Shown: one piece after another, positions 7,954 to 44,548 of the stretch | How positions within the stretch are numbered: position 1 is the stretch's first letter | Layout: the number at the start of each line of letters is the position of its first letter | Assembly: GCA_001769835.1 (NCBI GenBank) | Contig: MEPR01000073.1 | Coordinates: 1,112-65,111 of the forward strand | Direction of reading: 5' to 3' | From: Bdellovibrionales bacterium GWB1_55_8 | GTDB lineage: Bacteria > Bdellovibrionota > UBA1018 | Length of the DNA: 64,000 nucleotides | Program-made: the position numbers and the translations under genes | The notes under the pieces: model-generated | The model's database searches: none | What the model saw: only the letters and a program-made list of their open reading frames with translations | What the model was told of the DNA's origin: nothing

Positions 7954-8300
7954 CGCAGGGGAAATCCATGGGCTCGGGCATATTCCTGCACCTGCGCCAC
8001 CTTGGTCTCCGCAATTTCAAACACGTAGACGCCCGCCAAACCTTGTCCCTCCTGGTGCACCCGCAGCATAATTTGAGCCGCTTCCTGCCGCGACTTTCGA
8101 AAAAAGCGCTGCAAGACATCCACCACAAAGTCCATCGTCGTGTAATCGTCGTTCAACAGAAGAACAGCATATTTCGCTGGCTCTTTGAGCTTTGGCCGGC
8201 CCTCCTCGACCGCCACGTCCGAGCCGGTTTCTTCCTGGAAACGGCTGTCATCTGAGTCAGGCGAGTCGGGAAATCCGGACGAACTGATAGGCATGAGCAT
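7929..8300 (-). CDS. clpS: ATP-dependent Clp protease adaptor ClpS
   Basis: Core KLKEPAKYAVLLLNDDYTTMDFVVDVLQRFF...AAQIMLRVHQEGQGLAGVYVFEIAETKV is a clear ClpS fold. The ORF extends to 8360; the true start is probably the internal Met (MLMPISS) at 8300. Confidence 0.85.
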   Translation of the reverse strand: MLMPISSSGFPDSPDSDDSRFQEETGSDVAVEEGRPKLKEPAKYAVLLLNDDYTTMDFVVDVLQRFFRKSRQEAAQIMLRVHQEGQGLAGVYVFEIAETKVAQVQEYARAHGFPLRCALEPLL

Positions 8301-8403
8301 TTCATTAAAGTAGCACATGCATGGCCTCCGCTTGCAAGGTCTGCTTGACCGGGCGTGCACTCTCCCTCATTCTGACCTTAGCACTCGAGAAAGGCGGCCG
8401 ACC

Positions 8404-8961
8404 ATGACTCAGCAGACGGACGATCCAACTGGATCTCAGAAAAAACCTGACTCGCTCAAAAGGCAGCTGGAGCTCGCCAGGTTTGACCGTGCACTGGAAG
8501 TTTCCGAGAGCATGGCTTCCCGCCGGGTGCTTCTGACCACAACCGAGCTAGGCCGACTCAACAATATCCTTACCGGCCGGAACGAAGACCCGTGGCGGCA
8601 GGCGCCCGTCACGATCACGCTGCCATCAGGAGCTTCGGAAACGCTCGCACTCATGTCCGATCCGCTCGTCACGACCCGCGAGAAGTTGCACCATGCCACG
8701 GAACTCGCTGAATCAGGCGCCGTGATTGACGCAGCAGTGGACGTTTACGCGGGCCTGGTGCTCGCTCACGTTTTCGAGGATGCCAATCGCCGCACAGCAG
8801 TACTCGCGGCGCATTATTTTCTTCATCGGTACGGCGTGCCCGTATCAGGGATCGCTTTGCACGAAATCGGATTGGGCGACCTGCGCGAAGAAGGTCAGAC
8901 AGAACTGCTCCGTGAAACCATCCGCCAGATGGCGAAATTCGCCACCCGGCAGCGCAGCTAA
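8404..8961 (+). CDS. Fic/Doc-family protein with degenerate active-site motif (HVFEDANRR)
   Basis: About 185 aa. The central motif HVFEDANRRTAVLAAHYFL matches the Fic/Doc HxFx(D/E)(G/A)N(G/K)R core with substitutions. The internal ATG at 8404 is preferred over the ORF start at 8317. Confidence 0.5.
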   Translation: MTQQTDDPTGSQKKPDSLKRQLELARFDRALEVSESMASRRVLLTTTELGRLNNILTGRNEDPWRQAPVTITLPSGASETLALMSDPLVTTREKLHHATELAESGAVIDAAVDVYAGLVLAHVFEDANRRTAVLAAHYFLHRYGVPVSGIALHEIGLGDLREEGQTELLRETIRQMAKFATRQRS

Positions 8962-13629: not shown

Positions 13630-14462
13630 ATCAGACGTCGAAGCTCGCCCGCAAGATCCTTGCGAGGAACTATTCGGTCAACGAAGCCGTGCTCCAGAAG
13701 AAACTCGCTGCGCTGAAAGCCCTTGGGCAGCGACTGCCGGATGGTCTGCTCGATCACCCTCGGACCGGCGAACCCGATCAAAGCCGCGGGTTCAGCCAGA
13801 ATGATATCCCCGAGCATGGCAAATGAGGCGGCAACCCCACCCGTCGTGGGATCCGTGAGAACAGAAATATAAGGGATGCCTTCCGCGCGAAGCTGGCTTG
13901 TGATCGCGGTCGTTTTCGCCATCTGCATCAGGGAGAGAATCCCTTCCTGCATGCGGGCCCCGCCGGAGGAACTGATGATGACGGCCGGAATACGCTCCTT
14001 CAACGCGGTCTCGAAAAGCCGCGCGACTTTCTCTCCGACGACAACACCCATGCTGCCGCCCATGAACTTGAATTCGAAAACGCCAAGGCAGTACGGCAAT
14101 CCCTGGAGTTTGGCCTTTCCGGCGACAAACGCGTCGCGGACACCGGTGCTGCTCGCGGCCGAGCGCAGGCGGTCCTTATAAGGTTTTATGTCGTCGAATT
14201 CGAGAGGATCGGTGGAAACCAGATCTTCGGCGAATTCATCAAAGCTCCCCTCATCCGTCAGCAGCGCGATACGCTCCGTGGCAGTCATTCGAAAGTGATA
14301 GGAGCACTCGGGGCAGACCTGATGATGATCTTTCAGTACCTTTGATTGCAGTATCTCGCCACATTGCGTGCACTTGACCCACATGCCTTCCGGAACCTTG
14401 GAGGTGCGCTGTGAGACCTGGGCGCGAATGCGCGGAGTTTTAAGATCGTCAAACCATGACAT
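13590..14462 (-). CDS. accD: Acetyl-CoA carboxylase carboxyltransferase subunit beta
   Basis: N-terminal zinc ribbon (CTQCGE...CPECSYH). Carboxyltransferase motifs (GGSMGVVVGEK, GGARMQEG). Confidence 0.9.
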   Translation of the reverse strand: MSWFDDLKTPRIRAQVSQRTSKVPEGMWVKCTQCGEILQSKVLKDHHQVCPECSYHFRMTATERIALLTDEGSFDEFAEDLVSTDPLEFDDIKPYKDRLRSAASSTGVRDAFVAGKAKLQGLPYCLGVFEFKFMGGSMGVVVGEKVARLFETALKERIPAVIISSSGGARMQEGILSLMQMAKTTAITSQLRAEGIPYISVLTDPTTGGVAASFAMLGDIILAEPAALIGFAGPRVIEQTIRQSLPKGFQRSEFLLEHGFVDRIVPRKDLAGELRRLMWCLGRQTCRFPI

Positions 14463-32179: not shown

Positions 32180-32737
32180 ATGCGACGAACGACAGCTGGA
32201 ACTCTTTTGGGACCCGTTGCGGGAACGATCTTAGGACTGATGCTCATCAGTCCCAGCGTGTGGAGCGACGCCATCCCGGCACCGACCCAAACTGAAGTGG
32301 CTGAAGCCCAGATTCAAAAACTCTCGATCGGGCAAAGTGAGACAACCGTCACACGGCTGATGGGCCCTCCTCGAAACCGTGTAGCTCAAAAATCGGGCGC
32401 TATTTTGGACTATGAACAGCTCCTGCTTCGGTTCAAAAACGGGCGTCTCGCCGAAATTGACCACACCCTGGTTCCGCCAAAAGAAAGGGGGGCCTTGATT
32501 CCCGGAGATTTACCCCTGGTAGAACTTCCACGTGAACGCTCCGAAGACACGGTCCTTCCAGGGCGCTGGGTCACGCACCCGCAGAGCGGAAGGATATGGG
32601 TCATTGGTGTCAGCGGTAAAGTCGAACGAGTCCTTGTCAGGCCCGCCTGGAAAGTGAAAACGCCGGGTTTGCCGATTCACCAGTTACTCGATCGCCCTCC
32701 GCCCGGAGAAAACAACCAGGTGAGGCGTCGCAAATGA
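32180..32737 (+). CDS. Secreted hypothetical protein
   Basis: Signal peptide. 185 aa. ATGA overlap with the downstream metalloprotein gene. Confidence 0.35.
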   Translation: MRRTTAGTLLGPVAGTILGLMLISPSVWSDAIPAPTQTEVAEAQIQKLSIGQSETTVTRLMGPPRNRVAQKSGAILDYEQLLLRFKNGRLAEIDHTLVPPKERGALIPGDLPLVELPRERSEDTVLPGRWVTHPQSGRIWVIGVSGKVERVLVRPAWKVKTPGLPIHQLLDRPPPGENNQVRRRK

Positions 32738-34347
32738 AAACACTTCGAGCCACTGTCCTGATTGCTGCAAGCGTGCTGCTGGCGACAAGTGCCCTCGCGA
32801 AAAACAAAAATTGCCCGGATTGCATTATCGGGGAATCCGCGAACGCGCTTTCAAAGCAGACGGACCCGATTCTTGAAGTCGCGCGCTCCTGCCCGGAACC
32901 AGGTAAACTCGAACTGGAAGAAGCCAGAAAGGCCCATGCAGCTGTTTTCCCCCCGTCGCTTCCCACAGCGGAAAAAAACGCGAGCGGGCTCCGCCTGCGC
33001 GGAACGAACGAGGAACTCCGGATTTTCGGTGAGATTGTTGCCGGCAATCGCACTCCGAGCAACTGGCCTGACGCCGCAGCCAATTGTCCAAAGCTAAACG
33101 GTTCTTACCCCCAGGCTTACGATGTGCGCTGCGTGCTTTCCGCGGTCTTTGAAAGTGAAGAGTCCGCTCTCAGGGCACTCGTGATCGCAAAAAAGACCGG
33201 ATATATCGTCAGCCTGAGCCAGGAAAAAAGCCCGGAAGGATACGAGCAAATCTGGAAACCGGAAGAAGTTCGCGCGATCCACTACGCGACACAGGATCTC
33301 CCTTTCAATTTCCTCAACCTGAAAACCTTCAAACAATTTTACAGGGTGCATGATGATTTCGTGAGTCCGACCAATCCAGATGCCGCTGCGATCGCGCACA
33401 GCCCGCATGGCAACACGTTCTCATTCACACCCGGACACATTGTCGCGTACTTTGGAGCGTTCAAAAATGGCGTAAAAGCCGCGCGTACGACCATGGTGCA
33501 CGAACTGGCGCATCAGCTGGATTACAGCAACTGGCTGGGTACATCCACCTACATGAACAGAACCATTGGTTTTGAAAAAATCAGCTGGGAGCCGGATCCG
33601 CTCAATCCGGGCAAGATGCGTAAGAAGCAGGGCGCCCGCTTCGTCACAGATTATTCTCAGAAAAAACCCGCGGAGGATTTCGCTGAATCGGTTGAAAATT
33701 ACATTCACAATCCGCGGCTTCTCAGAACAAAAGCCCCGGAGAAATATGACTTCCTGAAGACAAATATCTTCGGAGGTCAGGAGAAAAATGTAAACATCTG
33801 GCCTCCACTGGCAACCGCCCTGAAAGGCGCGGAAGCCAAGGCGCAATTCAGCATCGAACTCCTCGCCTGTTTGCGCTACATCGGTGCAAGTCAGAAAACG
33901 GACGAAACCTGGATCTGGGAACCCAGAGCAGGCTCCACCATGCTCGACGGCCATCAGCGCGACAACGTGCTCCGAAGAGGAAAATGCGCCCAGTCGATCG
34001 CGAACCAGATCATCAGCGAACTCGATGAGGCAGCTCAGACCGAGGCGTGCTTGATCGGTTCCGGCGCTGTTTCCGCTGCCCTTGACGAGGAAGTGGGTCC
34101 TCTCGTTGGCGCGACGCTGGACGCGGCCTATGAGTTTGCCGAGTTGAAGGCGCCGCTTGCCTGCGCAAAGGGTGATAAAACCGACAAGACCTGCTTTTGG
34201 GAATCATTTACGAAAGCGAAACTCGAGGCCACGCCCGCCGCGGACGGTCTCTCTGCGAAGACGCTCCGCGAGCTTTCAGATCAGGTTCATCGCCTCGTGA
34301 CGGACAACCCTTTCGTCCCGCGCGTGATCAACCTTAACGGATTTTGA
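32734..34347 (+). CDS. Secreted putative zinc metallopeptidase (HExxH) lipoprotein/periplasmic protein
   Basis: Signal peptide. HELAHQLDY zincin-like motif. Cys-containing. 537 aa. Confidence 0.45.
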   Translation: MKTLRATVLIAASVLLATSALAKNKNCPDCIIGESANALSKQTDPILEVARSCPEPGKLELEEARKAHAAVFPPSLPTAEKNASGLRLRGTNEELRIFGEIVAGNRTPSNWPDAAANCPKLNGSYPQAYDVRCVLSAVFESEESALRALVIAKKTGYIVSLSQEKSPEGYEQIWKPEEVRAIHYATQDLPFNFLNLKTFKQFYRVHDDFVSPTNPDAAAIAHSPHGNTFSFTPGHIVAYFGAFKNGVKAARTTMVHELAHQLDYSNWLGTSTYMNRTIGFEKISWEPDPLNPGKMRKKQGARFVTDYSQKKPAEDFAESVENYIHNPRLLRTKAPEKYDFLKTNIFGGQEKNVNIWPPLATALKGAEAKAQFSIELLACLRYIGASQKTDETWIWEPRAGSTMLDGHQRDNVLRRGKCAQSIANQIISELDEAAQTEACLIGSGAVSAALDEEVGPLVGATLDAAYEFAELKAPLACAKGDKTDKTCFWESFTKAKLEATPAADGLSAKTLRELSDQVHRLVTDNPFVPRVINLNGF

Positions 34348-34864
34348 ACAGCTTCTTCTGAATCGCCCAGGGCGGCGTCGGACGGTCACCCGGGAAAGCA
34401 TAATCCCAGTGGCAGACAGCGCAGAAGTTTCCCTGATACGCGGAGCCTTCGCTGTAATCATAGCGAAACAGATTCTCCATCTGAGCGCTGTGCGGATTGT
34501 GGCATGAAGCGCAGCTGAACTCTTTCTGAGGATAAAGCGGGTCTTTGGGACCCGATACCGGATGCCCGAAGATCGGATGACTGCAGTCCTTTTTGCCCGG
34601 TCCCGGATGGCATTCCGTCATGATCAGTGAGGCGTCATGACATTGAAAGCAAAGATCATTGACGGGCGCGAGGAGGTTCGCGGGCCGGCCTGAATTTCCT
34701 TCGTGTCCTGCATGGCAGCTGTCGCAGCCGAAAACGGCGGCCTCATGCCGTCCGGCCTTTTCCAGAACCTCGGCGTGACATTCGAAGCAATTTTCAGCGG
34801 CTGCTGACGCGACCGAAAAAAGAGCAGACCAACACAATGCAGACATCAGAATCAAAGAGTTCAT
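34334..34864 (-). CDS. Multi-haem c-type cytochrome (five CxxCH motifs, 176 aa)
   Basis: Signal peptide. CFECH, CDSCH, CFQCH, CASCH and CAVCH haem-binding motifs are seen directly. Confidence 0.7.
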   Translation of the reverse strand: MNSLILMSALCWSALFSVASAAAENCFECHAEVLEKAGRHEAAVFGCDSCHAGHEGNSGRPANLLAPVNDLCFQCHDASLIMTECHPGPGKKDCSHPIFGHPVSGPKDPLYPQKEFSCASCHNPHSAQMENLFRYDYSEGSAYQGNFCAVCHWDYAFPGDRPTPPWAIQKKLFKIR

Positions 34865-35087
34865 TACGTTCTCACCCCGCCGGCTGCTTTATCACTGCAG
34901 CATGGCCGACGCAACATCAGAGAACTACACCGGAATTTCTTAAGGTTTTAAACTGACCGGCAGGCGTCTCATGGGCTTGACCGGCCTTCTAATTCCTGAT
35001 AGAAACGGTCGGTCTTTCAACTCCCCTCGCAGGAGACAGCCCCGAGTGAAACTTTCGCGTATCCAGCACCAGATCAAAAATTCGGCA

Positions 35088-38000
35088 ATGAGCGCTCTTC
35101 TGCTGCTCTGGTTGATTCCGGCTGCCGAAGCTTCCACCCTTCTTATCCCCAAGTCCCAACAGGAGAATCTGCAGGCTCCCGCAATCGACCTCGTGTACAA
35201 GGGCCAACCTCTTGACCGAGACCAGGTGGTGGACCTGATCGACTCCGGACAGGACATCAGCCGGATCGATCCCGCTCCGAGTGACGTCTGGACGCCAGCC
35301 GCACTCCCCGCCTCGGACGGCTCCTCTCAAAACTATCCGCCTGAAGAGGTGGTATTCGACTTTGACTCCGACATCACCGCTTCGCGGGGAATGTTTCGCG
35401 CGCGGCTCCTGGGTCCGGGCGCGGTTCCTTTTCGTCTCGTCCTCAGCCTCGACTCGCATGCCGCACTGATGCGCTCGGCCCTGCTGCGGCGCCTAGGTTA
35501 CACAGTCGACGCCCCGAAAGCGTATCGCTCGCTGACGGTGCGATTCCGCGACATAGCCACCCGAGAACGCTTTCTCGACCAGCTGAGTGATCGCACTCTG
35601 ACCGCCCGCTCGCGTTGGATTGAAGGATCGCTTTCGCCTTCTGACCCTCAGGTGACCTTGAGGGACGCTGTCCTTGAACCGGGACGAATCCAAATTCCTC
35701 CCTATCACTGGGGCGTCGTATCCGGAGCGCATCTGAAAGGCCGCAGGGTGCTTCGCGCTCTGATCGTGCCGTTTGTACTTCTGGATGTCCCTGAAAGCAT
35801 CAATCTCTACGCCTGGGAGCCGGGAAAGGAACTCAGCAAGCACGTTTCGCTGACGCATCCCTACGCCGATTCATTCTCCGAGACGACTTTCGATGATGCT
35901 CGTTGGATCGTCAGAAAAATTGCCGAACTGAAGCCGGAGGACTTAAAAACGATCGTGGCCGCCGGCCGGTATCCGGCGCCGGTCACCACTCTCATTCTCG
36001 AAAAACTCACGGCCCGGCGAAACAACCTGGTACGACTTTTCGAACTCAGGGGCGAGATTCCAAAAGCGATGCGCGAATTCGCATACCGAACCGATATCCA
36101 TTTTCCGCCAGACGTCCTGAAAGGAAAACTGGTTCGCGAAACTTATGAAGGCTACGCGCTTCGCTTCACCTATGGCGACCCCGAGTCTCCGCTCCGAAAA
36201 GACGAACTGGGCCGGTATCTCAGGCTGGAACTCATCAGCGGCGCGATCCGCGCCCTGACCCAGAAAGTGAATGAAGCGCTGGAGGCGCGCGGACCGGCGG
36301 ACATCGCGAAAAAACATTCGGAAGACCTTCAGAAGGAATTCCTCGATCATATCCAAAATAAACCGAACCAGCCCCTGTCGAAGCCTGTCGGCTTCTGGGG
36401 AGGAATGACGGGCGGACTTCGCGTCAACGCGAGCCGAAACGTCGTCACCGGAACTTATTACGGAAGCGATTCGAAACTGCAGCTGGTCGACAATATCTCA
36501 GCCCAGGCCACGGTCGGTTACTTCATGAGCAAGGACGGAGTACCGAAAGCAGTGGTGGGCGGCTCTGGAAATCTTGTCATTCAACGAAACTACATTCACG
36601 TAAGACCGGTTCCGAATCTGAAAACCGCGCTCACCACGAATTGGAGCTGGCTCTGGGTGCCCGGCTTCATGAAAAAGCTCGGAAAAATGATCGAACCTGA
36701 CGCTGCGAAGCCCGTCTCGAGCCTGGAGCCGGACCAGATTTCGAATAATTTGGATGCGTTTCTCGAGGAATTGAAGGAAGGCGAGCTCTTCACCATCACG
36801 GACTCCGTGGGGCTTGGCGCCTCGGTTTCCGCCACCATTCCTCTTCTGGCGCTTCTGGGTGTCGACCCGCTCGGAGTAGGTGGAACCTTCACCATCGGTC
36901 CAAGCGCCCAGGGCACGATCTTGAGGCGCACAACGTTCGTGCGCACCGCCGATGGTCTTCAGGTTTACCTCCAGCACGCGCACACCGAGAGCCTTTCAGC
37001 GAATTTCGATTTCAGCTTCTGGATGAATGTCCTGAAAACCTCGATCGGCGCGCAGCGTGGCGCAAGTTCCACGCGCGCTTACCTGCTGGGGACAAAGCCC
37101 AAAGGTGCCGACGAACAACGTCGCATGGCCATTGCGCTTTCCGCCCTATTGAAAGCCAATAACAGCGAAATCCTCGAGGATACCTACGGCAAATACGTCC
37201 TCAAACACGAGATGCCATCGAAGAGCCGCAAAGCGAAATTTCTCAGGTGGCAATGGTCCGGGGTCGAGGAAAGTCATCGTGTCGAGATCCAGCCTCCTGA
37301 GGACACGCAGGTGCCGCCGCGGTACCAGGCCAGGGATCATAAAAGAAAGTTGTTTTCACATCGCATCCTGCGGCGCTCGGGCACGAACGATTACAACTTC
37401 CTTGCGCAGGTGCTGGAGGGTTTCTTCCCGGGACATGGCCTCGAGTCAGCCGGAGCGGCCGGTGACAACCCCTCAAGCTCCTTCCTCGGTAAAAGCCGCT
37501 GGACGAATATCACCACGGAAGCCGAAACCACGGCAGGCCGTGAAACCGACCCCGTTTCACTGATCGAATATCATTGGCAAGGCTGGCTGCTCTCGAAAGC
37601 AAAGCTCTTTTCAATATTCGACCGCATCGAGGCCCGACTTGCGAGCCTGGACCCCGAACTCAGAGTGATTGACCGGGATGCGTTTCAGGATCTGAAGCAG
37701 CTACAGATGTATGACATTCAATCCACCCTTCTTATTTACGAGAAAGGCGTACGCCGAATCCGGGATGACATCCTGGGTGCCAGGAAAAAATCCGATCGCG
37801 CTCTTTTCGCCCGTCTTGTTGAAATCGAGGGACGTGAGAGTTTTCGCCGGTATTGCCTGTCCGAGCTTCAGCGAACCCATAGCGGTGAAGGCAGTGATCC
37901 GTATGCTCCCGAACGCGAGCTTGAGGAGATCATGAACGGCGGAGGGTGGTTCTACGCCTGCCTGAAACCCTGGATGTCGCGTGCGATGAGCCTGGCCAGG

Positions 38001-38297
38001 AAATTCCCTTCTGATCGCGAAGACCAGGTGAAATGGACAGCGAAACTGCTCCATGCCCTGGAGAAAGACCTCGATTTCGGCAAGCTCATTGAATGGATTG
38101 GAAAAGATCATTTCTTCTTTCAGGTGCGGGTCAGCGGCTTCCGGAAAGGACAGGAAAATGGTGACTCCGAATATGTATCAGGTTCCATCGGCATGGTGGA
38201 TCCGGCTCAGGGTGTGGGCCCGTTCAAGGAGATCGCGGATCAGACACATTTAACAACGCACGAACTCTATGCGCGTTACCTGAGTGAGGCACAATGA
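35088..38297 (+). CDS. Large (~1070 aa) secreted protein of unknown function, translationally coupled to downstream subtilase
   Basis: Signal peptide MSALLLLWLIPAAEAS at the internal ATG (ORF begins 34971). No recognisable catalytic motif. Stop overlaps the subtilase ATG (ATGA). Confidence 0.5.
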   Translation: MSALLLLWLIPAAEASTLLIPKSQQENLQAPAIDLVYKGQPLDRDQVVDLIDSGQDISRIDPAPSDVWTPAALPASDGSSQNYPPEEVVFDFDSDITASRGMFRARLLGPGAVPFRLVLSLDSHAALMRSALLRRLGYTVDAPKAYRSLTVRFRDIATRERFLDQLSDRTLTARSRWIEGSLSPSDPQVTLRDAVLEPGRIQIPPYHWGVVSGAHLKGRRVLRALIVPFVLLDVPESINLYAWEPGKELSKHVSLTHPYADSFSETTFDDARWIVRKIAELKPEDLKTIVAAGRYPAPVTTLILEKLTARRNNLVRLFELRGEIPKAMREFAYRTDIHFPPDVLKGKLVRETYEGYALRFTYGDPESPLRKDELGRYLRLELISGAIRALTQKVNEALEARGPADIAKKHSEDLQKEFLDHIQNKPNQPLSKPVGFWGGMTGGLRVNASRNVVTGTYYGSDSKLQLVDNISAQATVGYFMSKDGVPKAVVGGSGNLVIQRNYIHVRPVPNLKTALTTNWSWLWVPGFMKKLGKMIEPDAAKPVSSLEPDQISNNLDAFLEELKEGELFTITDSVGLGASVSATIPLLALLGVDPLGVGGTFTIGPSAQGTILRRTTFVRTADGLQVYLQHAHTESLSANFDFSFWMNVLKTSIGAQRGASSTRAYLLGTKPKGADEQRRMAIALSALLKANNSEILEDTYGKYVLKHEMPSKSRKAKFLRWQWSGVEESHRVEIQPPEDTQVPPRYQARDHKRKLFSHRILRRSGTNDYNFLAQVLEGFFPGHGLESAGAAGDNPSSSFLGKSRWTNITTEAETTAGRETDPVSLIEYHWQGWLLSKAKLFSIFDRIEARLASLDPELRVIDRDAFQDLKQLQMYDIQSTLLIYEKGVRRIRDDILGARKKSDRALFARLVEIEGRESFRRYCLSELQRTHSGEGSDPYAPERELEEIMNGGGWFYACLKPWMSRAMSLARKFPSDREDQVKWTAKLLHALEKDLDFGKLIEWIGKDHFFFQVRVSGFRKGQENGDSEYVSGSIGMVDPAQGVGPFKEIADQTHLTTHELYARYLSEAQ

Positions 38298-41200
38298 AAA
38301 CACGTCTATTGCCTCAGTCATCCGCGTTCATGATTCTCGGGTTGCTGGCGTCCATGGCCTTGCCTGATCCGGCGCTTGCCCTCGAAAACGTAACCCTCGT
38401 TCCCGTGAGAAGCGAAGACGCTCGCGCGCTCGCCAGGCTGCTCCCGGAACTTCGCGACCAAGCGGTCATCAAAACGACGCCTGTATTTTCTGAAAACGAA
38501 CGGAAGGCCCTTCGGGAACTGAACGAAGACGCCCTTGCCGCATCCCTACATGCCTCCTTCGCCACGACCGAAGAACTCCGTGCCTTTTCGAATTCCCTTG
38601 CAGCGCGTGGGATCGCGGTTCGCGTCGAGTCCAGGGAACTCCCGGTCCGTCTGTCCTCTGTCCTGTCGTCAAAGCCGGAACCACTCGAGCACGAGCAGTG
38701 GGGATTGAAAAACCGAGGAACGCCTCTAACAGTCCCGATTGACGATATCACCAGCACGACTCTGACATCGCGTGCGGGAGAGGACGTGCAGATCGGGCAG
38801 GTCCCGGCGGAAAAGACCGGAGCCTCGAAAATCGTCGTTGCGGTTCTGGATACCGGTGTCGATGGCGCGCATCCCGACCTGATTCCGAATCTTCTGCAAA
38901 AGCCCGATGAATGCGTCGCACTCGAAAGTTATCGCGAATGCCTGAAAGGAACCGATCGCAAGGCTTGCGATGAACGCTTCGGCAACTTTGATTCTGATGG
39001 CAACGGATATCCCATGGACTGCCTGGGCTGGAATTTGACAGTGGGAAAAAATCCGCTGAACGGGATTCAGGGAAACAGCCAGTCCAACGATACCGTCGGC
39101 CACGGGACCCATGTCGCGGGGGTGATCGGAGCGGCCTCCAACGGAATCGGAATTCGCGGGGTGAGCCAGAATGTGGCGCTTCTCCCCGTGAAGATATTCA
39201 ATGGAAATCCAAGATCTCCGGTTCGTGCTCAGTCGCTCGAAAGCACGACTTCCGGGGAGCCCGTGCCGTTGCCTTCTGAAAACGGCAGAAAGTGGGGAAC
39301 AGGCTTCGCAGATGTGATCGCCCGGGGCGTGCTCTACGCAATCCGCTCCGGCGCCCACGTCATGAACATCTCGCTCGCCTGGCCGGCGTCCGCTGACTCG
39401 GAGCTCATGCGACGAATGGTACGTCTCGCCCAATCGCGCGGGATTCTGATCGTTGCCGCGGCAGGCAATGATTCGACCGAAGCGGAAGTCATGCCCTGTG
39501 CTTATGATGGCGTCGTTTGCGTCGCCTCGCATCAGCCCGATGGAACTCTCTCTCACTTTTCCAACCATGGCGCCTCGGTCGATCTTGCGGCTCCTGGAGT
39601 TCGCATCCTGAGCACGTGGCCCCTGGCGCTCCGTCCGCAGGTTTTCACCGATCTGGTCGGTTATGAGTTCAAGAACGGCACCTCGATGGCCGCTCCGTTT
39701 GTCACAGGGGCGCTGGCGCGCCTGATGGCCGGAGGCATGTCGTCCGACGAAGCGCTCGCACGGGTCCTGATCGGCACACGACCGATCACCGGGAAAGGTT
39801 CACGCTCCGTTCGCTTCGGAAATCTCGACCTCGGAGGAAGCTTCCGCACCTCGCCCGAACCCCTGATCGTTCCTGAACGAAAAGGAATGACCGAGATCAC
39901 CTGGGAACGAGCACAAAAACAACTCACTCCTGTTTTGAATCTCAAGAACCTATGGCAGACAGCGCCTGCTGCTCAACTCACGATCAGGTTACCCGCTGAA
40001 CTCCAATCGGCGCTCCGCATCGACCAGTCCGTGTTCGACTTCAAAAACTGGAGCTCCGGTGAAAGTCGCACAGTAGCTGTACCGATCACCATTCTCGATG
40101 ACGAATTTCCCTCTGAAATAGACCTCTGGGTGGAAGTGAAAACTCCGCGCCAGTCACTGTTTGCGGCGGGCCGCCCTCCCCGCTCCTTCAAGGTCCGCGT
40201 CTCGGTGAGCGTGAATGTCGGGATCGACAGTGCCGATCCTGAATTCGAATCCATTCCCCTCGTGGGCATCGATCACCCGCGGACGGCCGTGAAAATCAGA
40301 AGCGTGCTCCCGACGGGCACCTCGGCATCTTCCAAGGTGCTCCGAGATTACGCGCTCATTCAGCCGAACGCCAAAGGCGACCGCATCATTCAGCTTTTCT
40401 CTCGCCGGGTGAGCGCGGATCAGGAGATCGGGTCTTACGAATTTCAGGGCAGCCATTCACTTGCGCGAACCGACGGAGAACTCCTTGCGCTTTATCGCCT
40501 CGATCTGGAACGCGACGGAAATGATGAGTACGCGCTTCTGACTACGTTCACTGGCGCAGGCGCAGACGGGAAACCGAGCTCACGGTTCCGATTCGTCTTC
40601 CTGGATGCCAGAGGCACGCGCCTGACTGGACCCACCGGCGAACTCACCTACGAACCAACGAAAGCAGTGCTTCCGGAAAGTTTCTCGTGGCTTGCCAACG
40701 GCAGCCGTTTGAGCCCGGCCTGGGTGGGAGGTGGATTCACCCCTGACAGCGAGATTCCCGCTTATGATCCCTGGAATCCTGATTGGTCGGATTCCCCGCG
40801 TTCGAGGTTCTATTACCTGGACGCCTCAGGGCTGCGGACGGTGAAGGAACCCAAAGACTACACCTTTGTGGCCACGCTGGGGCAAACGGACTCACAGAAA
40901 CTTGCAGGCGTTATTCCCGTCATTTTAGCTCGCGGGGAGTCTTACCGCCTGGAGTATGCGACGGCGCTCGTCCAAATGCCCGAAGGAGCACAGCAGCCCG
41001 TGGTGGCCGCCATCACCCCCCTCCGGTTGCAGGATTATCGGATGCTACTGGGCTTCGATACGGCCCAAACGGCGTGGTCTCTGGATACCGGCGCTTCGGC
41101 GGCGGGAACCGCTTTCTCCCTGGTGAGCCGCCCCGGGACCCTTCGCACGACCATCTTGCAATATGCGAATGTCCGGAGTGCCGTCGAAAATGTCATTGAG

Positions 41201-41683
41201 AAGATCTCGGATGTCATCAGCACCCCGGTCTTCGAGACGGATTCAGTTGTTCGAACGGCCGCTGTATTCGTTGGAACCGGTGGTGGGATTTTCACGCAAA
41301 CCCAATTCGACCTGCAGTTCCAGGATGCAGCCGAAGGAGCCACCGCCGTAAGCAGCCTTCGCCGGTTCAGCTTCCTCCCACAGCTTTCATTTCTGCGAAG
41401 CTTTCTGCCAGCTGCGGTGCATGGAAGAAAACCGGAAGACCGGCGTCTTCCCGCGATTCTTATCGAAGGATCACCCACCGGAAAAGACATCTCCGAAGTC
41501 ATTGTCCCGAAATATGGCCCGGACGGTCGGCTGGAACAGCTCATTCAGCCGGCACGACTCAGACTCGCGGCAGCCGCTGGCTGCCAACGCATTCCAAACC
41601 CGATCGCGCCATCGAGCGGAGCCCCCACACAGGTCTCGTTTTTCTGTGGTGATCGATTCATACGGGTGCCACTTACGCACTGA
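38294..41683 (+). CDS. Secreted subtilisin-like serine protease (peptidase S8) with ~650-aa C-terminal extension
   Basis: Signal peptide. Catalytic triad in D-H-S order: VAVLDTGVDGAHPD, HGTHVAGVIGA, GTSMAAPFVTGALA. 1129 aa. Confidence 0.85.
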   Translation: MKTRLLPQSSAFMILGLLASMALPDPALALENVTLVPVRSEDARALARLLPELRDQAVIKTTPVFSENERKALRELNEDALAASLHASFATTEELRAFSNSLAARGIAVRVESRELPVRLSSVLSSKPEPLEHEQWGLKNRGTPLTVPIDDITSTTLTSRAGEDVQIGQVPAEKTGASKIVVAVLDTGVDGAHPDLIPNLLQKPDECVALESYRECLKGTDRKACDERFGNFDSDGNGYPMDCLGWNLTVGKNPLNGIQGNSQSNDTVGHGTHVAGVIGAASNGIGIRGVSQNVALLPVKIFNGNPRSPVRAQSLESTTSGEPVPLPSENGRKWGTGFADVIARGVLYAIRSGAHVMNISLAWPASADSELMRRMVRLAQSRGILIVAAAGNDSTEAEVMPCAYDGVVCVASHQPDGTLSHFSNHGASVDLAAPGVRILSTWPLALRPQVFTDLVGYEFKNGTSMAAPFVTGALARLMAGGMSSDEALARVLIGTRPITGKGSRSVRFGNLDLGGSFRTSPEPLIVPERKGMTEITWERAQKQLTPVLNLKNLWQTAPAAQLTIRLPAELQSALRIDQSVFDFKNWSSGESRTVAVPITILDDEFPSEIDLWVEVKTPRQSLFAAGRPPRSFKVRVSVSVNVGIDSADPEFESIPLVGIDHPRTAVKIRSVLPTGTSASSKVLRDYALIQPNAKGDRIIQLFSRRVSADQEIGSYEFQGSHSLARTDGELLALYRLDLERDGNDEYALLTTFTGAGADGKPSSRFRFVFLDARGTRLTGPTGELTYEPTKAVLPESFSWLANGSRLSPAWVGGGFTPDSEIPAYDPWNPDWSDSPRSRFYYLDASGLRTVKEPKDYTFVATLGQTDSQKLAGVIPVILARGESYRLEYATALVQMPEGAQQPVVAAITPLRLQDYRMLLGFDTAQTAWSLDTGASAAGTAFSLVSRPGTLRTTILQYANVRSAVENVIEKISDVISTPVFETDSVVRTAAVFVGTGGGIFTQTQFDLQFQDAAEGATAVSSLRRFSFLPQLSFLRSFLPAAVHGRKPEDRRLPAILIEGSPTGKDISEVIVPKYGPDGRLEQLIQPARLRLAAAAGCQRIPNPIAPSSGAPTQVSFFCGDRFIRVPLTH

Positions 41684-41840
41684 AAGGAGCCAATAAGGCA
41701 GGGTCATTCGGAAACCACCTGAATTTTTTTCTATCGACAGAAACGCCAAGGCGGAAGCGGATCTTGTCATATCAGCTAGTTACGCTTCGGCATCGTTCTT
41801 GCTGTTGCGTCCCGCCGAGAACAGAAAGGGATAAAAATTT

Positions 41841-42593
41841 ATGATCACTACAAAAACAACAGTTCAACTTATGGCGGTGGTGGCTCTCATCGTCGCCGCG
41901 CCAATGATGGGATGCAGAAGCTCAAGCCATCACACCTCGGTCATTTCCGATCCTTACCAGCCGATGTGGTACGACGTTTATGGCCGCTACTGCGGTACCG
42001 GCACTCCGTCCGCTGGCTGTAACTATTATTCCAATGGCCTGAAGATCATCGACATCGAAGATCCTTACTTCAACAACTACTACAATCTGGAATATGCCTA
42101 TTGGGAGTATTATGACGAGTACGGTTATCTCTCGTACTACCTCGGCTGGGCCTGGCTGAGCCCGAATGACATCCTCTACAACGAAAACGGAAGAGCACTG
42201 AACGAGACCGGCAACGAAGAAGGTCGCGACATCGTCGCTGAAGCTGGAGAACAGCAGGAATCAGCGATCATGGGCGCAGGCAAACAATTCGCTTCGCGCT
42301 ATGCTCTTGCGGACTCCGTAGGCGTTCGAATCGCGCGCACCCTGAATGATTGGGCAACACTGGCAAAATCGCGCTCCCGCACGGAGCAGGACATTGCTGA
42401 CTTCTCAAAGCGCCTCTACGGCGTAGATTACACCCAGGTCACCTCGGCTCTCGCCAAGGCTGCTGAAGGTGACAAAACCGAGATCAACGTTGCCCTCGGC
42501 GAAATGGCGGACTACTGGGGAACGACCCCTGAGACTTCCCGCGAAATCGTAAAGGGCGCCTACAAAGACGTTCTTGGCGACTTCAACCCCTAA
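41841..42593 (+). CDS. Secreted Tyr/Asn-rich hypothetical protein
   Basis: Signal peptide. YYNLEYAYWEYYDEYGYLSYYLGWAW aromatic cluster. Followed by a strong terminator. Confidence 0.4.
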   Translation: MITTKTTVQLMAVVALIVAAPMMGCRSSSHHTSVISDPYQPMWYDVYGRYCGTGTPSAGCNYYSNGLKIIDIEDPYFNNYYNLEYAYWEYYDEYGYLSYYLGWAWLSPNDILYNENGRALNETGNEEGRDIVAEAGEQQESAIMGAGKQFASRYALADSVGVRIARTLNDWATLAKSRSRTEQDIADFSKRLYGVDYTQVTSALAKAAEGDKTEINVALGEMADYWGTTPETSREIVKGAYKDVLGDFNP

Positions 42594-42659: not shown

Positions 42660-42745
42660 CCTGAGATGCCAGGAACCGGAGCAATCCGAATTGACAGCTG
42701 TCAGATTTAATTATAATGCAATGCGTCAAAGGATCGGTCATCCCT

Positions 42746-44548
42746 ATGTCCCTTTCCGTTCCCTCAAAAAGCAAACTCGGCTTCGTCACGACACTGTTGA
42801 TCTCCACCTTGCTGCTGCAGGCCCAACCCAGCGCCGCACAGTCGTCTGAAGACCTTCCAGAGCGTCTGGTGATCGGCATGGACGGTGTCTCCTACTACGA
42901 CCTTCAACGACTTCAGGCAGAAGGGCTTTTCAAGAATTTTCATGCGGTAAGCCGCGCCATCTCAACATTCCCCTCATTAAGCGACATTGCCTGGGCCGAT
43001 ATTTTTCAAACGATTCAGCCAAACGGCTATCAGCGCTTCCATTACAGCGTTCGCGCCAACCGCATCGTCGGTGGAGCGCTCTCGGATCTCGGAAATCCAA
43101 TCGACTACGAAAAGCAGATGCACCTCGCCTTTGAGGACCTCGGGCACCACACGTTTTCCTACATGTTCGCGGCGAACGCAGCGGAAGAGGAGATCGAGAC
43201 CATTACCCGCGACGTTCTGAATGCTCGCGGCATCCGGACGTTTTACACGTACATGCTTTCAACCGACACCCTCCAGCACACGGACGGTGACATCATCGGT
43301 TTTTTGAAACTGCTGAATCGCAAACTCTCCGAACTTCAGACCGAGTATCGCCGGCAAACCGGCAAAGAGCTTCGGATCGCGCTTCTCTCAGACCACGGGA
43401 ACACCCATCACAACAAGGGCATCCGCGTCCCGGTTCGCGAGTTTCTGGAGGAACGGGGCTTCCGCATCTCCGAAAAAATCGAGCGCGAGAAGGACATCGT
43501 GTTCACGGCAGCCGGCATCCTCAGTTCGATCGCGATCTTCAGCCGTGAAAGCCAGATCAATGCCATTGTCGAAAACATTGTTGAACTGGACGGTGTGGAC
43601 CTCATCTCCTACGTGCTTCCGGGGGACGGTGATCTGATAGGCCTGCGCAACAGCGAAGGCGAGGAAGCTCTCATCGTGAAACGCGAGGGAGAGAAGAAAT
43701 ACTCCTATCAGATGACAAAGGGAGACCCGCTCAATTACGCCGAGATCGTCGCACGCCTTCAGCAGGAAGGAAAAATGGACGATGCCGGATTCGTAACCTC
43801 CGAAGACTGGCTGCAAGCGACTTCAGATCACTTCTATCCGGCTGCGGTTGAAAGAATTTACCGCGGACATCGCGTCGTGACACTGAACCCCGCCCGCATC
43901 CTCGTTTCCCTGAAGGACGGTTACGAGAACGCCAACAGTCTTGTCAAATTCATGACCCACTTCAAGAAGCGCGGCGGCACCCATGGCGCTTTGAGCGACA
44001 AGGGCACCAATGGGATTCTCATGACGAATTACATGCCGACGCGTGACCTCACGACCGACAGGATTTCTGATTTCCTGCAACTGTCCGAACTTCGCGAATA
44101 TCGCAAGGAAAAGGCCGGGGCACGTTTCACCGACTCACGCATCATCGGGACCGACCTCGATAACGGTGCGCCTGTCGAATCCGATGACAACCTGGGCCCG
44201 CAACATGAAACGTTCCTGAACCTCTGGGATCCGGAAGCCCGCTCGTTCGCGGAACTTGGGATCGAGACGCGTTACCGCTTCCTGGTGAAACATAACGGAT
44301 TCTCCCTGTTCAACCGCAAAGCTTCAAACCGGGAGTTCGTCGCGGATTCCCTTCCAAGAACTTCGGACGAAACGGAATTCCGCATTCCCCTCGCCCTTGC
44401 GATTCCGGATCACCTGAATCCGGGCGAATACTTCGTGAAGGTCTACGCAAGACGAATGGACCCAAAAACAGGAAAAGAGCTCGCAGAAAAGAAGCTCGTC
44501 CTGCTCCGTTTTTTCACGGACCTTGACGGACAGGTTGTCGCTTACTGA
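42746..44548 (+). CDS. Secreted alkaline-phosphatase-superfamily enzyme (type I phosphodiesterase/nucleotide pyrophosphatase-like)
   Basis: Signal peptide. Metal-ligand-like motifs IGMDGVSYYD, LLSDHGNTHH, RGGTHGALSDKG. About 600 aa. Confidence 0.45.
   Translation: MSLSVPSKSKLGFVTTLLISTLLLQAQPSAAQSSEDLPERLVIGMDGVSYYDLQRLQAEGLFKNFHAVSRAISTFPSLSDIAWADIFQTIQPNGYQRFHYSVRANRIVGGALSDLGNPIDYEKQMHLAFEDLGHHTFSYMFAANAAEEEIETITRDVLNARGIRTFYTYMLSTDTLQHTDGDIIGFLKLLNRKLSELQTEYRRQTGKELRIALLSDHGNTHHNKGIRVPVREFLEERGFRISEKIEREKDIVFTAAGILSSIAIFSRESQINAIVENIVELDGVDLISYVLPGDGDLIGLRNSEGEEALIVKREGEKKYSYQMTKGDPLNYAEIVARLQQEGKMDDAGFVTSEDWLQATSDHFYPAAVERIYRGHRVVTLNPARILVSLKDGYENANSLVKFMTHFKKRGGTHGALSDKGTNGILMTNYMPTRDLTTDRISDFLQLSELREYRKEKAGARFTDSRIIGTDLDNGAPVESDDNLGPQHETFLNLWDPEARSFAELGIETRYRFLVKHNGFSLFNRKASNREFVADSLPRTSDETEFRIPLALAIPDHLNPGEYFVKVYARRMDPKTGKELAEKKLVLLRFFTDLDGQVVAY

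What the first reader, a model, noticed from the sequence alone, without database searches (positions are those of the whole stretch)
35088..41683. A translationally coupled gene pair: a ~1070-aa secreted protein of unknown function and a 1129-aa S8 subtilase with a long C-terminal extension
The first ORF (signal peptide MSALLLLWLIPAAEAS, no recognisable catalytic or repeat motif) ends with its stop overlapping the ATG of the subtilase (ATGA at 38294-38297). The subtilase has a canonical D-H-S triad in its first ~480 aa, followed by ~650 aa of unassigned sequence. Two giant secreted proteins with obligate co-expression suggest a dedicated protease plus partner: an inhibitor, chaperone, substrate, scaffold or surface anchor. 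This is consistent with an extracellular hydrolytic lifestyle. Nothing I recognise describes the first protein.
Basis: partly seen in the sequence, partly recalled or inferred. Interest (0 to 1): 0.6.

Follow-up and report, generated by a model that had tools for sequence, protein, structure and literature searches.

The report
Predatory-bacterium subtilase with giant coupled partner
An active secreted subtilisin-type protease is fused by overlapping genes to a 1083-residue secreted protein of unknown family, a pairing kept across the predatory phylum Bdellovibrionota and switched on at prey entry in the model predator, where the partner has never been studied.

Summary
ORF1 is 35046-38297 (GTG start, 1083 aa, not about 1070). 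The S8 subtilase is 38294-41683 (1129 aa). They share an ATGA overlap.

The window comes from a Bdellovibrionales genome assembled from a metagenome. The partner matches nothing in Pfam, NCBIfam or PDB sequences. Its confident AlphaFold model (pLDDT 84.7) has no significant Foldseek match.

- In 59 of 61 evaluable loci the partner is followed at once by this S8, which carries the same roughly 600-aa C-terminal extension.
- The junction is nearly always a 1-, 4- or 11-nt overlap.
- In 4 of 4 reverse look-ups the S8 is preceded by the partner.

A third gene, a tethered lipoprotein (41841-42593), is often part of the cluster.

The B. bacteriovorus HD100 orthologs are Bd2429 (partner), Bd2428 (S8) and Bd2427 (lipoprotein). 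Bd2429 and Bd2428 protein levels track each other (r=0.97) and peak 45 min to 2 h into predation. All three mRNAs rise at 30 min. A Bd2428 transposon mutant was among the predatory genes isolated, and Bd2428 is found in killed prey.

My best reading is a predation-phase, dentilisin-like protease complex with a non-catalytic subunit of new fold. The physical complex and the partner's role are inferred, not shown.

The parts
35031..35035 (+). Shine-Dalgarno-like AGGAG, 10 nt upstream of the ORF1 GTG start
   Evidence: Read directly from the sequence.
35046..38297 (+). ORF1: 1083-aa secreted partner protein of unknown family (ortholog of B. bacteriovorus HD100 Bd2429)
   Evidence: P0001 is 100% identical over 1083 aa. 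No Pfam, NCBIfam or PDB match. The family has 1059 clusters.
35046..35132 (+). ORF1 Sec (type I) signal peptide, predicted cleavage AEA|S after residue 29
   Evidence: Read from the sequence. There is no Cys before residue 937, so it is not a lipoprotein.
35133..36365 (+). ORF1 N-terminal alpha/beta region (residues 30-440), rich in invariant Arg, Asp and His residues; only weak kinase-like fold hits
   Evidence: AlphaFold model. Invariant columns. Weak Foldseek hits to kinases, E=0.2-0.7.
36390..38147 (+). ORF1 beta-rich region (residues 449-1034): 14 long strands interleaved with helices, barrel-like, with an invariant Cys937/Cys972 pair
   Evidence: The best, non-significant, fold matches are outer-membrane barrels. 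Most strands lack a hydrophobic face.
38294..38297 (+). ATGA stop/start overlap between ORF1 and the S8 gene; GAGG at 38286-38289 serves as the S8 ribosome-binding site
   Evidence: Overlaps of 1, 4 or 11 nt, or gaps of 0-5 nt, are conserved in related loci.
38294..41683 (+). ORF2: 1129-aa S8 subtilase (ortholog of HD100 Bd2428)
38294..38380 (+). S8 signal peptide (residues 1-29, ALA|L)
   Evidence: Read from the sequence. The N-terminus is conserved.
38381..38632 (+). Propeptide-like alpha/beta domain (residues 30-113); present in this clade, absent in the Bdellovibrio genus and in short-form orthologs
   Evidence: Model secondary structure. Presence and absence table. Alignment.
38711..39853 (+). 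S8 catalytic domain (residues 140-520) with D186 (38849-38851), H270 (39101-39103), N392 (39467-39469) and S464 (39683-39685)
   Evidence: Pfam. Invariant columns. Foldseek match to thermitase and subtilisin, TM 0.85.
38891..39079 (+). Cys-rich insert between the catalytic Asp and His (residues about 200-262; C207, C216, C225, C243; motif DxDGNGYPxDC)
   Evidence: It is present only in loci of clades that also carry the lipoprotein gene.
39866..40219 (+). Beta-sandwich domain following the catalytic domain (residues 525-642)
   Evidence: Model secondary structure.
40247..41671 (+). Family-specific all-beta C-terminal domain (residues 652-1126): about eight 4-strand units, propeller-like by inference, with invariant C1097 and C1118
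   Evidence: No Pfam or PDB sequence match. Conserved in every partner-linked S8.
41706..41731 (+). Weak terminator-like hairpin (AUUCGG-loop-CUGAAU) followed by U7, between the S8 gene and ORF3
   Evidence: It has too few G-C pairs for the scan.
41841..42593 (+). ORF3: 250-aa lipoprotein (lipobox-like MMGC, Cys25), ortholog of HD100 Bd2427; a movable third member of the cluster

Best explanation
Window 35046-42593 encodes a module found across Bdellovibrionota whose products all act outside the cytoplasm. It has three parts: a Sec-secreted 1083-aa non-catalytic protein of new fold, an active S8 subtilase translationally coupled to it, and a tethered outer-membrane lipoprotein that is transcribed semi-independently.

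Proposed mechanism:
1. The two large proteins are made from one mRNA in a fixed ratio.
2. They meet in the periplasm and form a heteromeric complex. Contact is through the protease's family-specific C-terminal beta domains, which occur only in partner-linked subtilases.
3. The complex is deployed at prey entry and early prey occupation.
4. The partner acts as a scaffold, targeting or latency subunit, and is probably clipped by the protease. The lipoprotein, where present, helps anchor or hold the enzyme.

This is the logic of the Treponema dentilisin complex PrcB-PrcA-PrtP.

Shown: gene overlap and its conservation, export signals, an intact catalytic site, fixed-ratio co-variation of the orthologous proteins, induction on prey entry, and presence of the protease in prey and in culture supernatant.

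Inferred: the physical complex, the docking surface, and the partner's role.
For: Pair conservation and gene overlap:
- The partner is followed at once by this S8 in 59 of 61 evaluable loci, which hold 50 distinct partner sequences from B. bacteriovorus to Halobacteriovoraceae.
- Flanking genes differ between loci.
- 4 of 4 reverse look-ups from the S8 find the partner immediately upstream.
- Junctions are ATGA, TGATG/TAATG, an 11-nt overlap or a gap of 0-5 nt.

Proteins:
- The C-terminal extension is conserved end to end in all partner-linked S8s and has no Pfam or PDB relative.
- The partner is conserved over its full length: mean pairwise identity 37%, against 30% for the S8 C-terminal region. 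It has many invariant polar residues.
- All three proteins carry export signals and conserved Cys pairs.

HD100 orthologs, identified (CAE80242 = Bd2428, 1033 aa; CAE80243 = Q6MKG4 = Bd2429):
- Proteome profiles correlate at r=0.97 with a constant offset of 1.55+-0.15 log units, peaking at 45 min to 2 h (PMC12546842 supplement).
- mRNAs rise at 30 min of predation: 14.4x, 2.6x and 2.3x for Bd2427, Bd2428 and Bd2429 (PMC2797640 supplement).
- Bd2428 is one of the transposon-hit 'predatory genes' of Tudor and co-workers, as cited in PMC2797640.
- Bd2428 is listed in the prey 'kiss of death' secretome (PMC11003981).
- Bd2428 occurs as fragments in culture supernatant (PMC3898049).

Dentilisin precedent:
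- That complex is a lipoprotein, a large accessory protein cleaved by the protease, and an S8 with a unique C-terminal domain required for its expression, all from one operon (PMC8167434).
- The same gene order (lipoprotein, partner, S8) occurs in L001, L009-L011, L057, L060 and L065.
Against: - No direct evidence of a physical complex. No multimer prediction could be run.
- There is no sequence or demonstrated fold relation to PrcA or PrcB.
- The partner and the S8 have ordinary signal peptides and are not acylated, unlike the dentilisin components.
- In HD100 the lipoprotein Bd2427 does not co-vary with the pair at protein level (r about 0). It is also missing from a whole short-form clade.
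- Two loci have a partner without an adjacent S8 (L036, L045).
- No correlated insertions or deletions between partner and S8 were found.
- Bd2429 was not found in the stored, truncated part of the secretome table.
Confidence: 0.45

Rival explanations
1. The partner is the protease's dedicated substrate. It would be a pro-effector, for example a protein that inserts into membranes or forms pores, matured by cleavage and then acting on the prey envelope. The subtilase would be only its processing enzyme.
For: - Some long strands are amphipathic and rich in Gly, Ser and Thr, e.g. 478-497, 581-599 and 637-657.
- The weak best fold matches are membrane beta-barrels.
- The partner is about 3-fold more abundant than the protease on the paper's log2 scale.
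- The dentilisin accessory protein PrcA is itself cleaved by its protease.
- Low-confidence exposed loops at 607-609, 797-804 and 948-966 could be cleavage sites.
Against: - A fixed ratio near 3:1 is closer to complex stoichiometry than to enzyme:substrate.
- No fold match is significant.
- Most strands lack a hydrophobic face.
- A mere substrate does not explain why the S8 needs a 600-aa co-inherited extension.
- The N-terminal 400 residues hold most of the invariant polar residues, which suggests a function of their own.
Confidence: 0.15
2. The partner is a periplasmic chaperone or latency factor (an inhibitor for self-protection). It would fold the subtilase and keep it inactive inside the predator until export, like the external chaperone ORF2 of the Aeromonas sobria serine protease.
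For: - Many orthologous S8s, including the Bdellovibrio genus and the short-form clade, lack the N-terminal propeptide-like domain, whereas the partner is always present.
- The ASP-ORF2 complex is among the structural neighbours of the S8 model (3wqb).
- Tight translational coupling suits a folding helper.
Against: - Known external chaperones and inhibitors are small. This partner is 120 kDa, with several domains conserved throughout.
- The window's own S8 has a propeptide-like domain yet keeps the partner.
- The partner gene lies upstream of the protease gene, not downstream as in ASP-ORF2 and VvsA-VvsB.
Confidence: 0.15
3. The partner is an integral outer-membrane beta-barrel that exports the subtilase or anchors it at the cell surface, acting as a dedicated translocon.
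For: In two independent libraries the best matches of the beta-rich half are outer-membrane barrels: TonB-dependent receptors, autotransporter barrels, omptins and OmpG/CymA. The region has 14 long antiparallel strands. A lipoprotein is encoded alongside.
Against: - All those matches are non-significant (E above 0.004, TM 0.3 or lower, rmsd 13-40 A).
- Only about 3 of 14 strands have a clearly hydrophobic face across 50 orthologs, and strands 717-827 are charged on both faces.
- Tight turns occur at both ends of successive hairpins rather than alternating long loops and short turns.
- The last strand lies 50 residues before a helical C-terminus, so there is no terminal beta-signal.
- No Omp85, autotransporter or TonB-receptor family matched.
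Confidence: 0.12
4. The two genes are merely co-transcribed neighbours with independent functions.
For: There is no direct interaction evidence. Two loci have the partner alone.
Against: Adjacency, order and overlap are kept across a phylum while all flanking genes change. The S8 extension is found only with the partner. One B. bacteriovorus genome has both genes broken.
Confidence: 0.05

Closest known systems
Bd2429-Bd2428(-Bd2427) of Bdellovibrio bacteriovorus HD100 (direct orthologs)
   Same: - Same gene order, with a 4-nt overlap.
- About 30% identity for the partner and 44-46% for the S8 N-terminal/catalytic query region.
- Same C-terminal extension and the same downstream lipoprotein.

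   Different: The Bdellovibrio S8 lacks the N-terminal propeptide-like domain. Bd2428 appears in the literature only as one entry in lists of proteases. In the library searched, Bd2429 is absent from the main text of every paper and appears only in supplementary tables.
Treponema denticola dentilisin complex (prcB-prcA-prtP)
   Same: - One locus encodes a small lipoprotein, a large lineage-restricted accessory protein and an S8 protease.
- That S8 has a unique C-terminal domain needed for its expression, and the accessory protein is processed by the protease (PMC8167434).
- The gene order lipoprotein, partner, S8 is seen in several loci here.
   Different: - No sequence homology. The PrtP model NF033595 scores 78 against a cut-off of 300.
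- The partner here is 1083 aa and not acylated, and the S8 is not acylated.
- The extension here is about 600 aa, against about 250.
- The biology is predation, not host tissue.
Aeromonas sobria serine protease ASP with its external chaperone ORF2 (and Vibrio VvsA-VvsB)
   Same: An S8-family protease is co-transcribed with a dedicated non-catalytic partner that binds it in the periplasm (PDB 3wqb among the fold hits; PMC11272048 listed).
   Different: That chaperone is small and encoded downstream. ASP has a kexin-type P-domain. Here the partner is larger than the protease's catalytic core and is encoded upstream.
Classical secreted subtilases (savinase, thermitase, deseasin MCP-01, Vpr)
   Same: The catalytic domain matches them: TM about 0.85, about 25% identity, intact triad.
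   Different: They have no obligate partner gene. They lack the Cys-rich insert between Asp and His and the 600-aa C-terminal extension.

Membership tests
Peptidase S8 (subtilase), for ORF2 | Match to the family profile above the curated threshold | tested here: met
   PF00082 scores 130.9 bits against a cut-off of 21.8, E=7.6e-38, residues 178-479.
Peptidase S8 (subtilase), for ORF2 | Asp-His-Ser triad in that order, plus the oxyanion Asn | tested here: met
   D186, H270, S464 and N392 are invariant in 45 homologs and in the 4-way alignment.
Peptidase S8 (subtilase), for ORF2 | Subtilisin alpha/beta fold | tested here: met
   Foldseek matches to thermitase, subtilisin and deseasin at E down to 3e-20, with TM (normalised by target) of 0.81-0.85.
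Subtilase I9-type N-terminal propeptide | Profile match to the Inhibitor_I9 family | tested here: not met
   No such Pfam hit at E<=0.1. The model shows a beta-alpha-beta-alpha-beta-alpha-beta domain at 30-113 that is propeptide-like in position only.
Dentilisin complex (PrcB-PrcA-PrtP) | The S8 subunit is an equivalog of PrtP | tested here: not met
   NF033595 scores 78.2 bits against a cut-off of 300, covering only part of the catalytic domain.
Dentilisin complex (PrcB-PrcA-PrtP) | The accessory protein is homologous to PrcA | tested here: not met
   ORF1 has no meaningful NCBIfam or Pfam match. PrcA is described as unique to oral spirochetes.
Dentilisin complex (PrcB-PrcA-PrtP) | All three products are lipoproteins | tested here: not met
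   Only ORF3 has a lipobox. ORF1 and the S8 have type I signal peptides and no N-terminal Cys.
Dentilisin complex (PrcB-PrcA-PrtP) | The accessory protein is cleaved by the protease, and a stable surface complex forms | not testable with these tools
   This needs biochemistry.
Type VII secretion mycosin | Equivalog score for TIGR03921 | tested here: not met
   135 bits against a cut-off of 278.75. No ESX genes lie nearby.
Autotransporter subtilase (EprS/SphB1 type) | C-terminal autotransporter beta-domain | tested here: not met
   NF051851 scores 33.7 bits against a cut-off of 1700. No autotransporter Pfam domain was found in the extension of 28 members.
Integral outer-membrane beta-barrel, for ORF1 | Every barrel strand has a lipid-facing hydrophobic face | tested here: not met
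   Across 50 orthologs only about 3 of 14 strands show strong alternation. Strands 717-827 are polar on both faces.
Integral outer-membrane beta-barrel, for ORF1 | A C-terminal beta-signal strand ending in an aromatic residue | tested here: not met
   The last strand ends at residue 1034 and is followed by 49 mostly helical residues. The terminal residue is Q or R in many orthologs.
Integral outer-membrane beta-barrel, for ORF1 | Significant structural match to a known barrel family | tested here: inconclusive
Protein-kinase-like fold, for the ORF1 N-terminal region | Significant fold match and catalytic motifs | tested here: inconclusive
   Only weak Foldseek hits to Mps1, a MAP kinase and a poxvirus kinase (E=0.2-0.7, probability 0.1-0.44). 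No kinase Pfam match.

The most novel reading that the evidence does not exclude
The 1083-aa partner defines a new protein fold. It would be the working part of an ancestral Bdellovibrionota predation device, not an accessory. In this reading it is a prey-directed effector or translocon with a large beta-barrel-like body. It would be delivered at prey entry, activated or positioned by its own co-translated subtilase, and held by a Gly-tethered lipoprotein. That would be a previously unrecognised machine shared by predators that enter the prey periplasm and those that stay attached outside the prey.
Probability: 0.15. Interest if true: 0.8.

Novelty: new variant of a known kind. Interest (0 to 1): 0.55.

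Why it matters
How Bdellovibrio-type predators breach and remodel prey is still only partly known, and most early-predation proteins are 'hypothetical'.

This work links a protease already flagged by transposon, transcript, proteome and secretome studies (Bd2428) to an obligate 120-kDa partner (Bd2429). The partner is as widely conserved as the protease, has no known relatives, and has not been discussed in the literature searched.

It gives a concrete, testable unit for genetics and structural biology: two or three genes, defined domains, and clear predictions.

It also shows that studying or expressing the protease alone, as is usually done for predatory enzymes, may miss its real form.

Tried and rejected
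Searches for a known family:
- Pfam, NCBIfam and PDB-sequence searches of ORF1, as a single sequence and as a 34-sequence profile up to E=10, gave nothing.
- Foldseek of the ORF1 model against PDB and BFVD gave no hit at E<=0.001.
- Foldseek of the S8 model returned only catalytic-domain hits in its top 50. The fold of the C-terminal extension is therefore unassigned. A profile of that extension against PDB and Pfam gave only noise.

Candidate identities rejected:
- Bd2269, the 'prey-lytic' subtilase, is not the ortholog. It is 56.6 kDa, has its own promoter and a divergent downstream gene.
- Bd2430 and the 683-aa upstream gene were considered as cluster members. They are neighbours in the Bdellovibrio genus only and are absent from the window.
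- The 300-aa gene downstream in L005 is not an ORF3 homolog.

Analyses that gave nothing decisive:
- I looked for partner insertions or deletions correlated with S8 architecture and found none of note.
- Mirror-tree correlations (0.88) are uninformative because of shared phylogeny.

Literature dead ends:
- The Tn-seq supplement (PMC6561027), the pilin paper supplement (PMC5430801) and the AlphaFold-Multimer paper (PMC12034629) hold nothing on these genes.
- The Tudor 2008 paper is not held.

The paper treats the scale as log2, so the ratio is about 3x.

Full report
**1. Observation**

The ORF listing shows two long plus-strand ORFs, 34971/35046-38297 and 38294-41683. The junction reads cacaATGAaaa, so the ORF1 stop TGA overlaps the S8 ATG by 4 nt.

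- The most plausible ORF1 start is GTG 35046. An AGGAG lies 10 nt upstream.
- That start gives a normal signal peptide, MKLSRIQHQIKNSAMSALLLLWLIPAAEA|S. The product equals the 1083-aa database protein P0001 of 'Bdellovibrionales bacterium GWB1_55_8' at 100% identity and coverage.
- The public record starts the subtilase 12 codons in (P0198, 1117 aa), which hides the overlap. The MKT N-terminus is conserved in a distant ortholog, and a GAGG lies 4 nt upstream of 38294. Both support the longer form.

**2. The protease**

ORF2 matches Pfam Peptidase_S8 at residues 178-479 (E=7.6e-38). D186, H270, S464 and the oxyanion N392 are invariant in a 45-sequence alignment.

The AlphaFold model is confident (pLDDT 85.6, pTM 0.78). 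Its catalytic domain superposes on thermitase and subtilisin with TM about 0.85.

The model shows, in order:
- a signal peptide;
- a propeptide-like alpha/beta domain (30-113);
- the catalytic domain, with a Cys-rich insert between Asp and His (about 200-262; four conserved Cys and a DxDGNGYPxDC motif);
- a beta-sandwich (525-642);
- an all-beta region (652-1126) built of about eight 4-strand units.

I read the last region as propeller-like. That is inference only.

Residues 520-1129 match nothing in Pfam or PDB sequences, either as a single sequence or as a 28-member profile. The equivalog models for mycosin, PrtP and EprS are all far below their cut-offs.

**3. The partner**

ORF1 has no Pfam or NCBIfam match, alone or in 21 family members. 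It has no PDB sequence match up to E=10 with a 34-sequence profile.

An exhaustive profile search finds 1059 clusters at 50% identity, 449 of them at E<=1e-30. Of the 150 best-scoring matches shown, most are full-length proteins of 1000-1200 aa. This is a large, uniform and unnamed family.

The AlphaFold model is confident (pLDDT 84.7, pTM 0.78).
- Residues 30-440 form an N-terminal alpha/beta region that holds most of the invariant Arg, Asp and His residues.
- Residues 449-1034 form a beta-rich half of 14 long strands interleaved with helices.
- Cys937 and Cys972 are an invariant pair.

Foldseek finds no match at E<=0.001 in PDB or BFVD. The weak best hits are outer-membrane barrels, and for the N-terminal part protein kinases.

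A canonical integral outer-membrane barrel is not supported:
- only about 3 of 14 strands have a hydrophobic face across 50 orthologs;
- four strands are charged on both faces;
- the C-terminus is helical.

**4. Conservation of the pair**

- Contexts of three distant homologs (35-41% identity) each show the partner followed, with overlap, by an S8 of 893-1138 aa. The flanking genes differ.
- Starting from the S8 C-terminal extension alone, I reached Bdellovibrio sp. proteins of about 1030 aa. Each is again preceded by a protein of roughly 1120-1160 aa with no Pfam match and a 4-nt overlap. That upstream protein is 30% identical to ORF1 over its whole length (E=1e-166).
- A scan of one genome per species returned 56 loci. 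They come from B. bacteriovorus strains, other Bdellovibrio, Pseudobdellovibrio, Bacteriovoracaceae and Halobacteriovoraceae, plus one contig in a 'Streptomyces' bin that is probably a binning error.
- tblastn shows the S8 with the same extension directly downstream in 59 of the 61 loci with enough DNA.
- The exceptions are L036 and L045. L036 keeps the aromatic-lyase gene that normally follows the S8. In L045 the partner is followed by an acyl-CoA dehydrogenase.
- Junctions are ATGA, TGATG/TAATG, an 11-nt overlap or a gap of 0-5 nt.
- Four reverse look-ups from S8 homologs all find a partner-sized ORF without Pfam match immediately upstream.

**5. A third gene**

The 250-aa ORF at 41841-42593 is homologous to the gene just downstream of the S8 in Bdellovibrio (E=7e-18). 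In other lineages its homolog sits just upstream of the partner.

Its relatives are lipoproteins: a lipobox Cys, usually followed by a long poly-Gly tether and then a Tyr-rich domain.

A clade whose S8 is short (about 895 aa) lacks this gene nearby. That S8 has no propeptide-like domain and no Cys-rich insert. The insert and the lipoprotein therefore co-occur. This is a single clade and so a single evolutionary event, which makes it only a hint of contact.

A weak hairpin followed by a U7 run at 41706-41731 suggests the lipoprotein gene is partly independent of the bicistronic pair.

**6. Orthologs in the model predator**

Exact-sequence look-up places the B. bacteriovorus proteins in clusters that contain HD100 entries:
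- CAE80242.1, 'Serin protease', 1033 aa;
- CAE80243.1 = Q6MKG4.

Supplementary tables identify these as Bd2428 (Q6MKG5, 1033 aa, 114.9 kDa) and Bd2429. Bd2427 (Q6MKG6, 301 aa) matches the lipoprotein in length and position; its sequence was not compared.

Published data on these genes:
- At 30 min of predation, compared with attack phase, mRNAs rise 14.4x (Bd2427), 2.6x (Bd2428) and 2.3x (Bd2429) (PMC2797640 supplement).
- That paper also cites Bd2428 as one of the transposon-hit 'predatory genes' of Tudor and co-workers.
- In the 2025 quantitative proteome, Bd2429 and Bd2428 correlate at r=0.97 over 11 time points. The offset is constant at 1.55+-0.15 log units, about 3-fold on the paper's log2 scale. 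Both peak at 45 min to 2 h and fall about 3-fold by 5-7 h.
- Bd2427 does not follow them. It peaks at 2-3 h.
- Bd2428 is named in the secretome found in prey killed without invasion, and Bd2427 is in the raw list (PMC11003981).
- Bd2428 was found as smaller fragments in the culture supernatant of a host-independent (prey-independent) strain (PMC3898049).
- In the library searched, Bd2429 is in no paper's main text.
- Bd2269, the recently characterised exit-phase subtilase, is a different and much smaller enzyme.

**7. Mechanism**

The firm facts are:
- one mRNA with overlapped genes, kept across a phylum;
- export signals and disulfide-type Cys pairs on all products;
- an intact active site;
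- a 600-aa S8 extension found only with the partner;
- a partner under full-length constraint (37% mean identity, against 30% for the S8 extension);
- fixed-ratio protein levels in vivo and induction at prey entry.

From these I infer a heteromeric protease complex assembled in the periplasm and used in early predation. The partner would be a non-catalytic scaffold, targeting or latency subunit, possibly clipped by the protease. The lipoprotein would be an optional anchor.

The nearest worked-out analogue is dentilisin. There prcB (a lipoprotein), prcA (a large accessory protein cleaved by PrtP) and prtP (an S8 with a unique C-terminal domain required for its expression) form a surface complex (PMC8167434).

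This module is not a member of that family. There is no homology, and the two large proteins are not acylated.

The rivals remain open (see the rival explanations):
- partner as substrate or pro-effector;
- partner as chaperone or inhibitor;
- partner as membrane translocon.

The variable presence of the S8 propeptide-like domain against an invariant partner keeps the chaperone or latency idea alive. The barrel-like weak hits keep the effector or translocon idea alive.

**8. Novelty and verdict**

The S8 domain is ordinary. These are new relative to what the libraries and papers searched contain:
- the obligate pairing;
- the protease's extension;
- the partner family, with its unmatched fold;
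- the link to Bd2428 and Bd2429.

I rate it a new variant of a known kind, namely subtilases that depend on an accessory subunit. Interest is moderate to good. It is a well-defined lead with experimental handles, rather than a surprise in principle.

Noticed in passing
window 32180-32737 and 32734-34347 (+): A second gene pair with a 4-nt overlap lies just upstream. It is a 185-aa ORF without Pfam match, followed by a 537-aa protein with weak zinc-metallopeptidase hits (M90, Mx). This may be another protease-plus-partner unit.
   Followed up: no
window 34334-34864 (-): A small multihaem cytochrome c (paired CXXCH, cytochrome c7/c3 hits) is transcribed divergently from the partner gene.
   Followed up: no
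window 38294-38332: The public annotation of the subtilase (P0198, 1117 aa) starts at Met13. That start removes the positively charged signal-peptide N-region and hides the ATGA overlap.
   Followed up: yes
window 38891-39079; loci L003, L005, L012, L014, L016-L019, L037, L039: The Cys-rich insert of the S8 is absent in exactly the clade that also lacks the lipoprotein gene and the propeptide-like domain. Elsewhere the insert and the lipoprotein co-occur. This is one clade, so the evidence for contact is weak.
   Followed up: partly
L064 (B. bacteriovorus kdesi) 6001-8945; cluster members XGC90006-XGC90010: In strain kdesi the partner gene is split (191 + 746 aa) while the S8 is intact. In another B. 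bacteriovorus genome both the S8 (887 + 103 aa) and the partner (127 + 984 aa) are split. This could be joint decay or sequencing errors.
   Followed up: no
L036 6001-10447; L045 5941-11111: Two loci have a partner homolog with no S8 beside it. L036 retains the aromatic-amino-acid-lyase neighbour that follows the S8 in L003 and L005, which suggests a deletion. In L045 the partner is followed by an acyl-CoA dehydrogenase.
   Followed up: partly
L058; protein P0220: Family members sit in metagenome bins labelled Streptomyces griseus and Methylotenera. These are most likely binning errors rather than real occurrence outside Bdellovibrionota.
   Followed up: no
L001 16855-18618 (-), L010 about 12642-13898 (-), L066 10506-12206 (+): A second, smaller S8 peptidase (566-587 aa) lies next to the module in several loci of the window's clade, but not in the window itself.
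   Followed up: no
L062 4785-5792 and Bdellovibrio-genus loci (HD100 Bd2430): The 335-342-aa gene upstream of the partner in Bdellovibrio (Bd2430) tracks Bd2428 and Bd2429 in the proteome (r=0.94). It is 6x induced at 30 min and is in the prey secretome. It is restricted to the Bdellovibrio genus and absent from the window.
   Followed up: partly
window 27134-29803 (+) and 42716-44548 (+): Two other large, probably secreted proteins lie nearby. One is 889 aa with an SdrD-B / carboxypeptidase-regulatory-like domain. The other is 610 aa with a weak phosphodiesterase (alkaline-phosphatase superfamily) hit.
   Followed up: no
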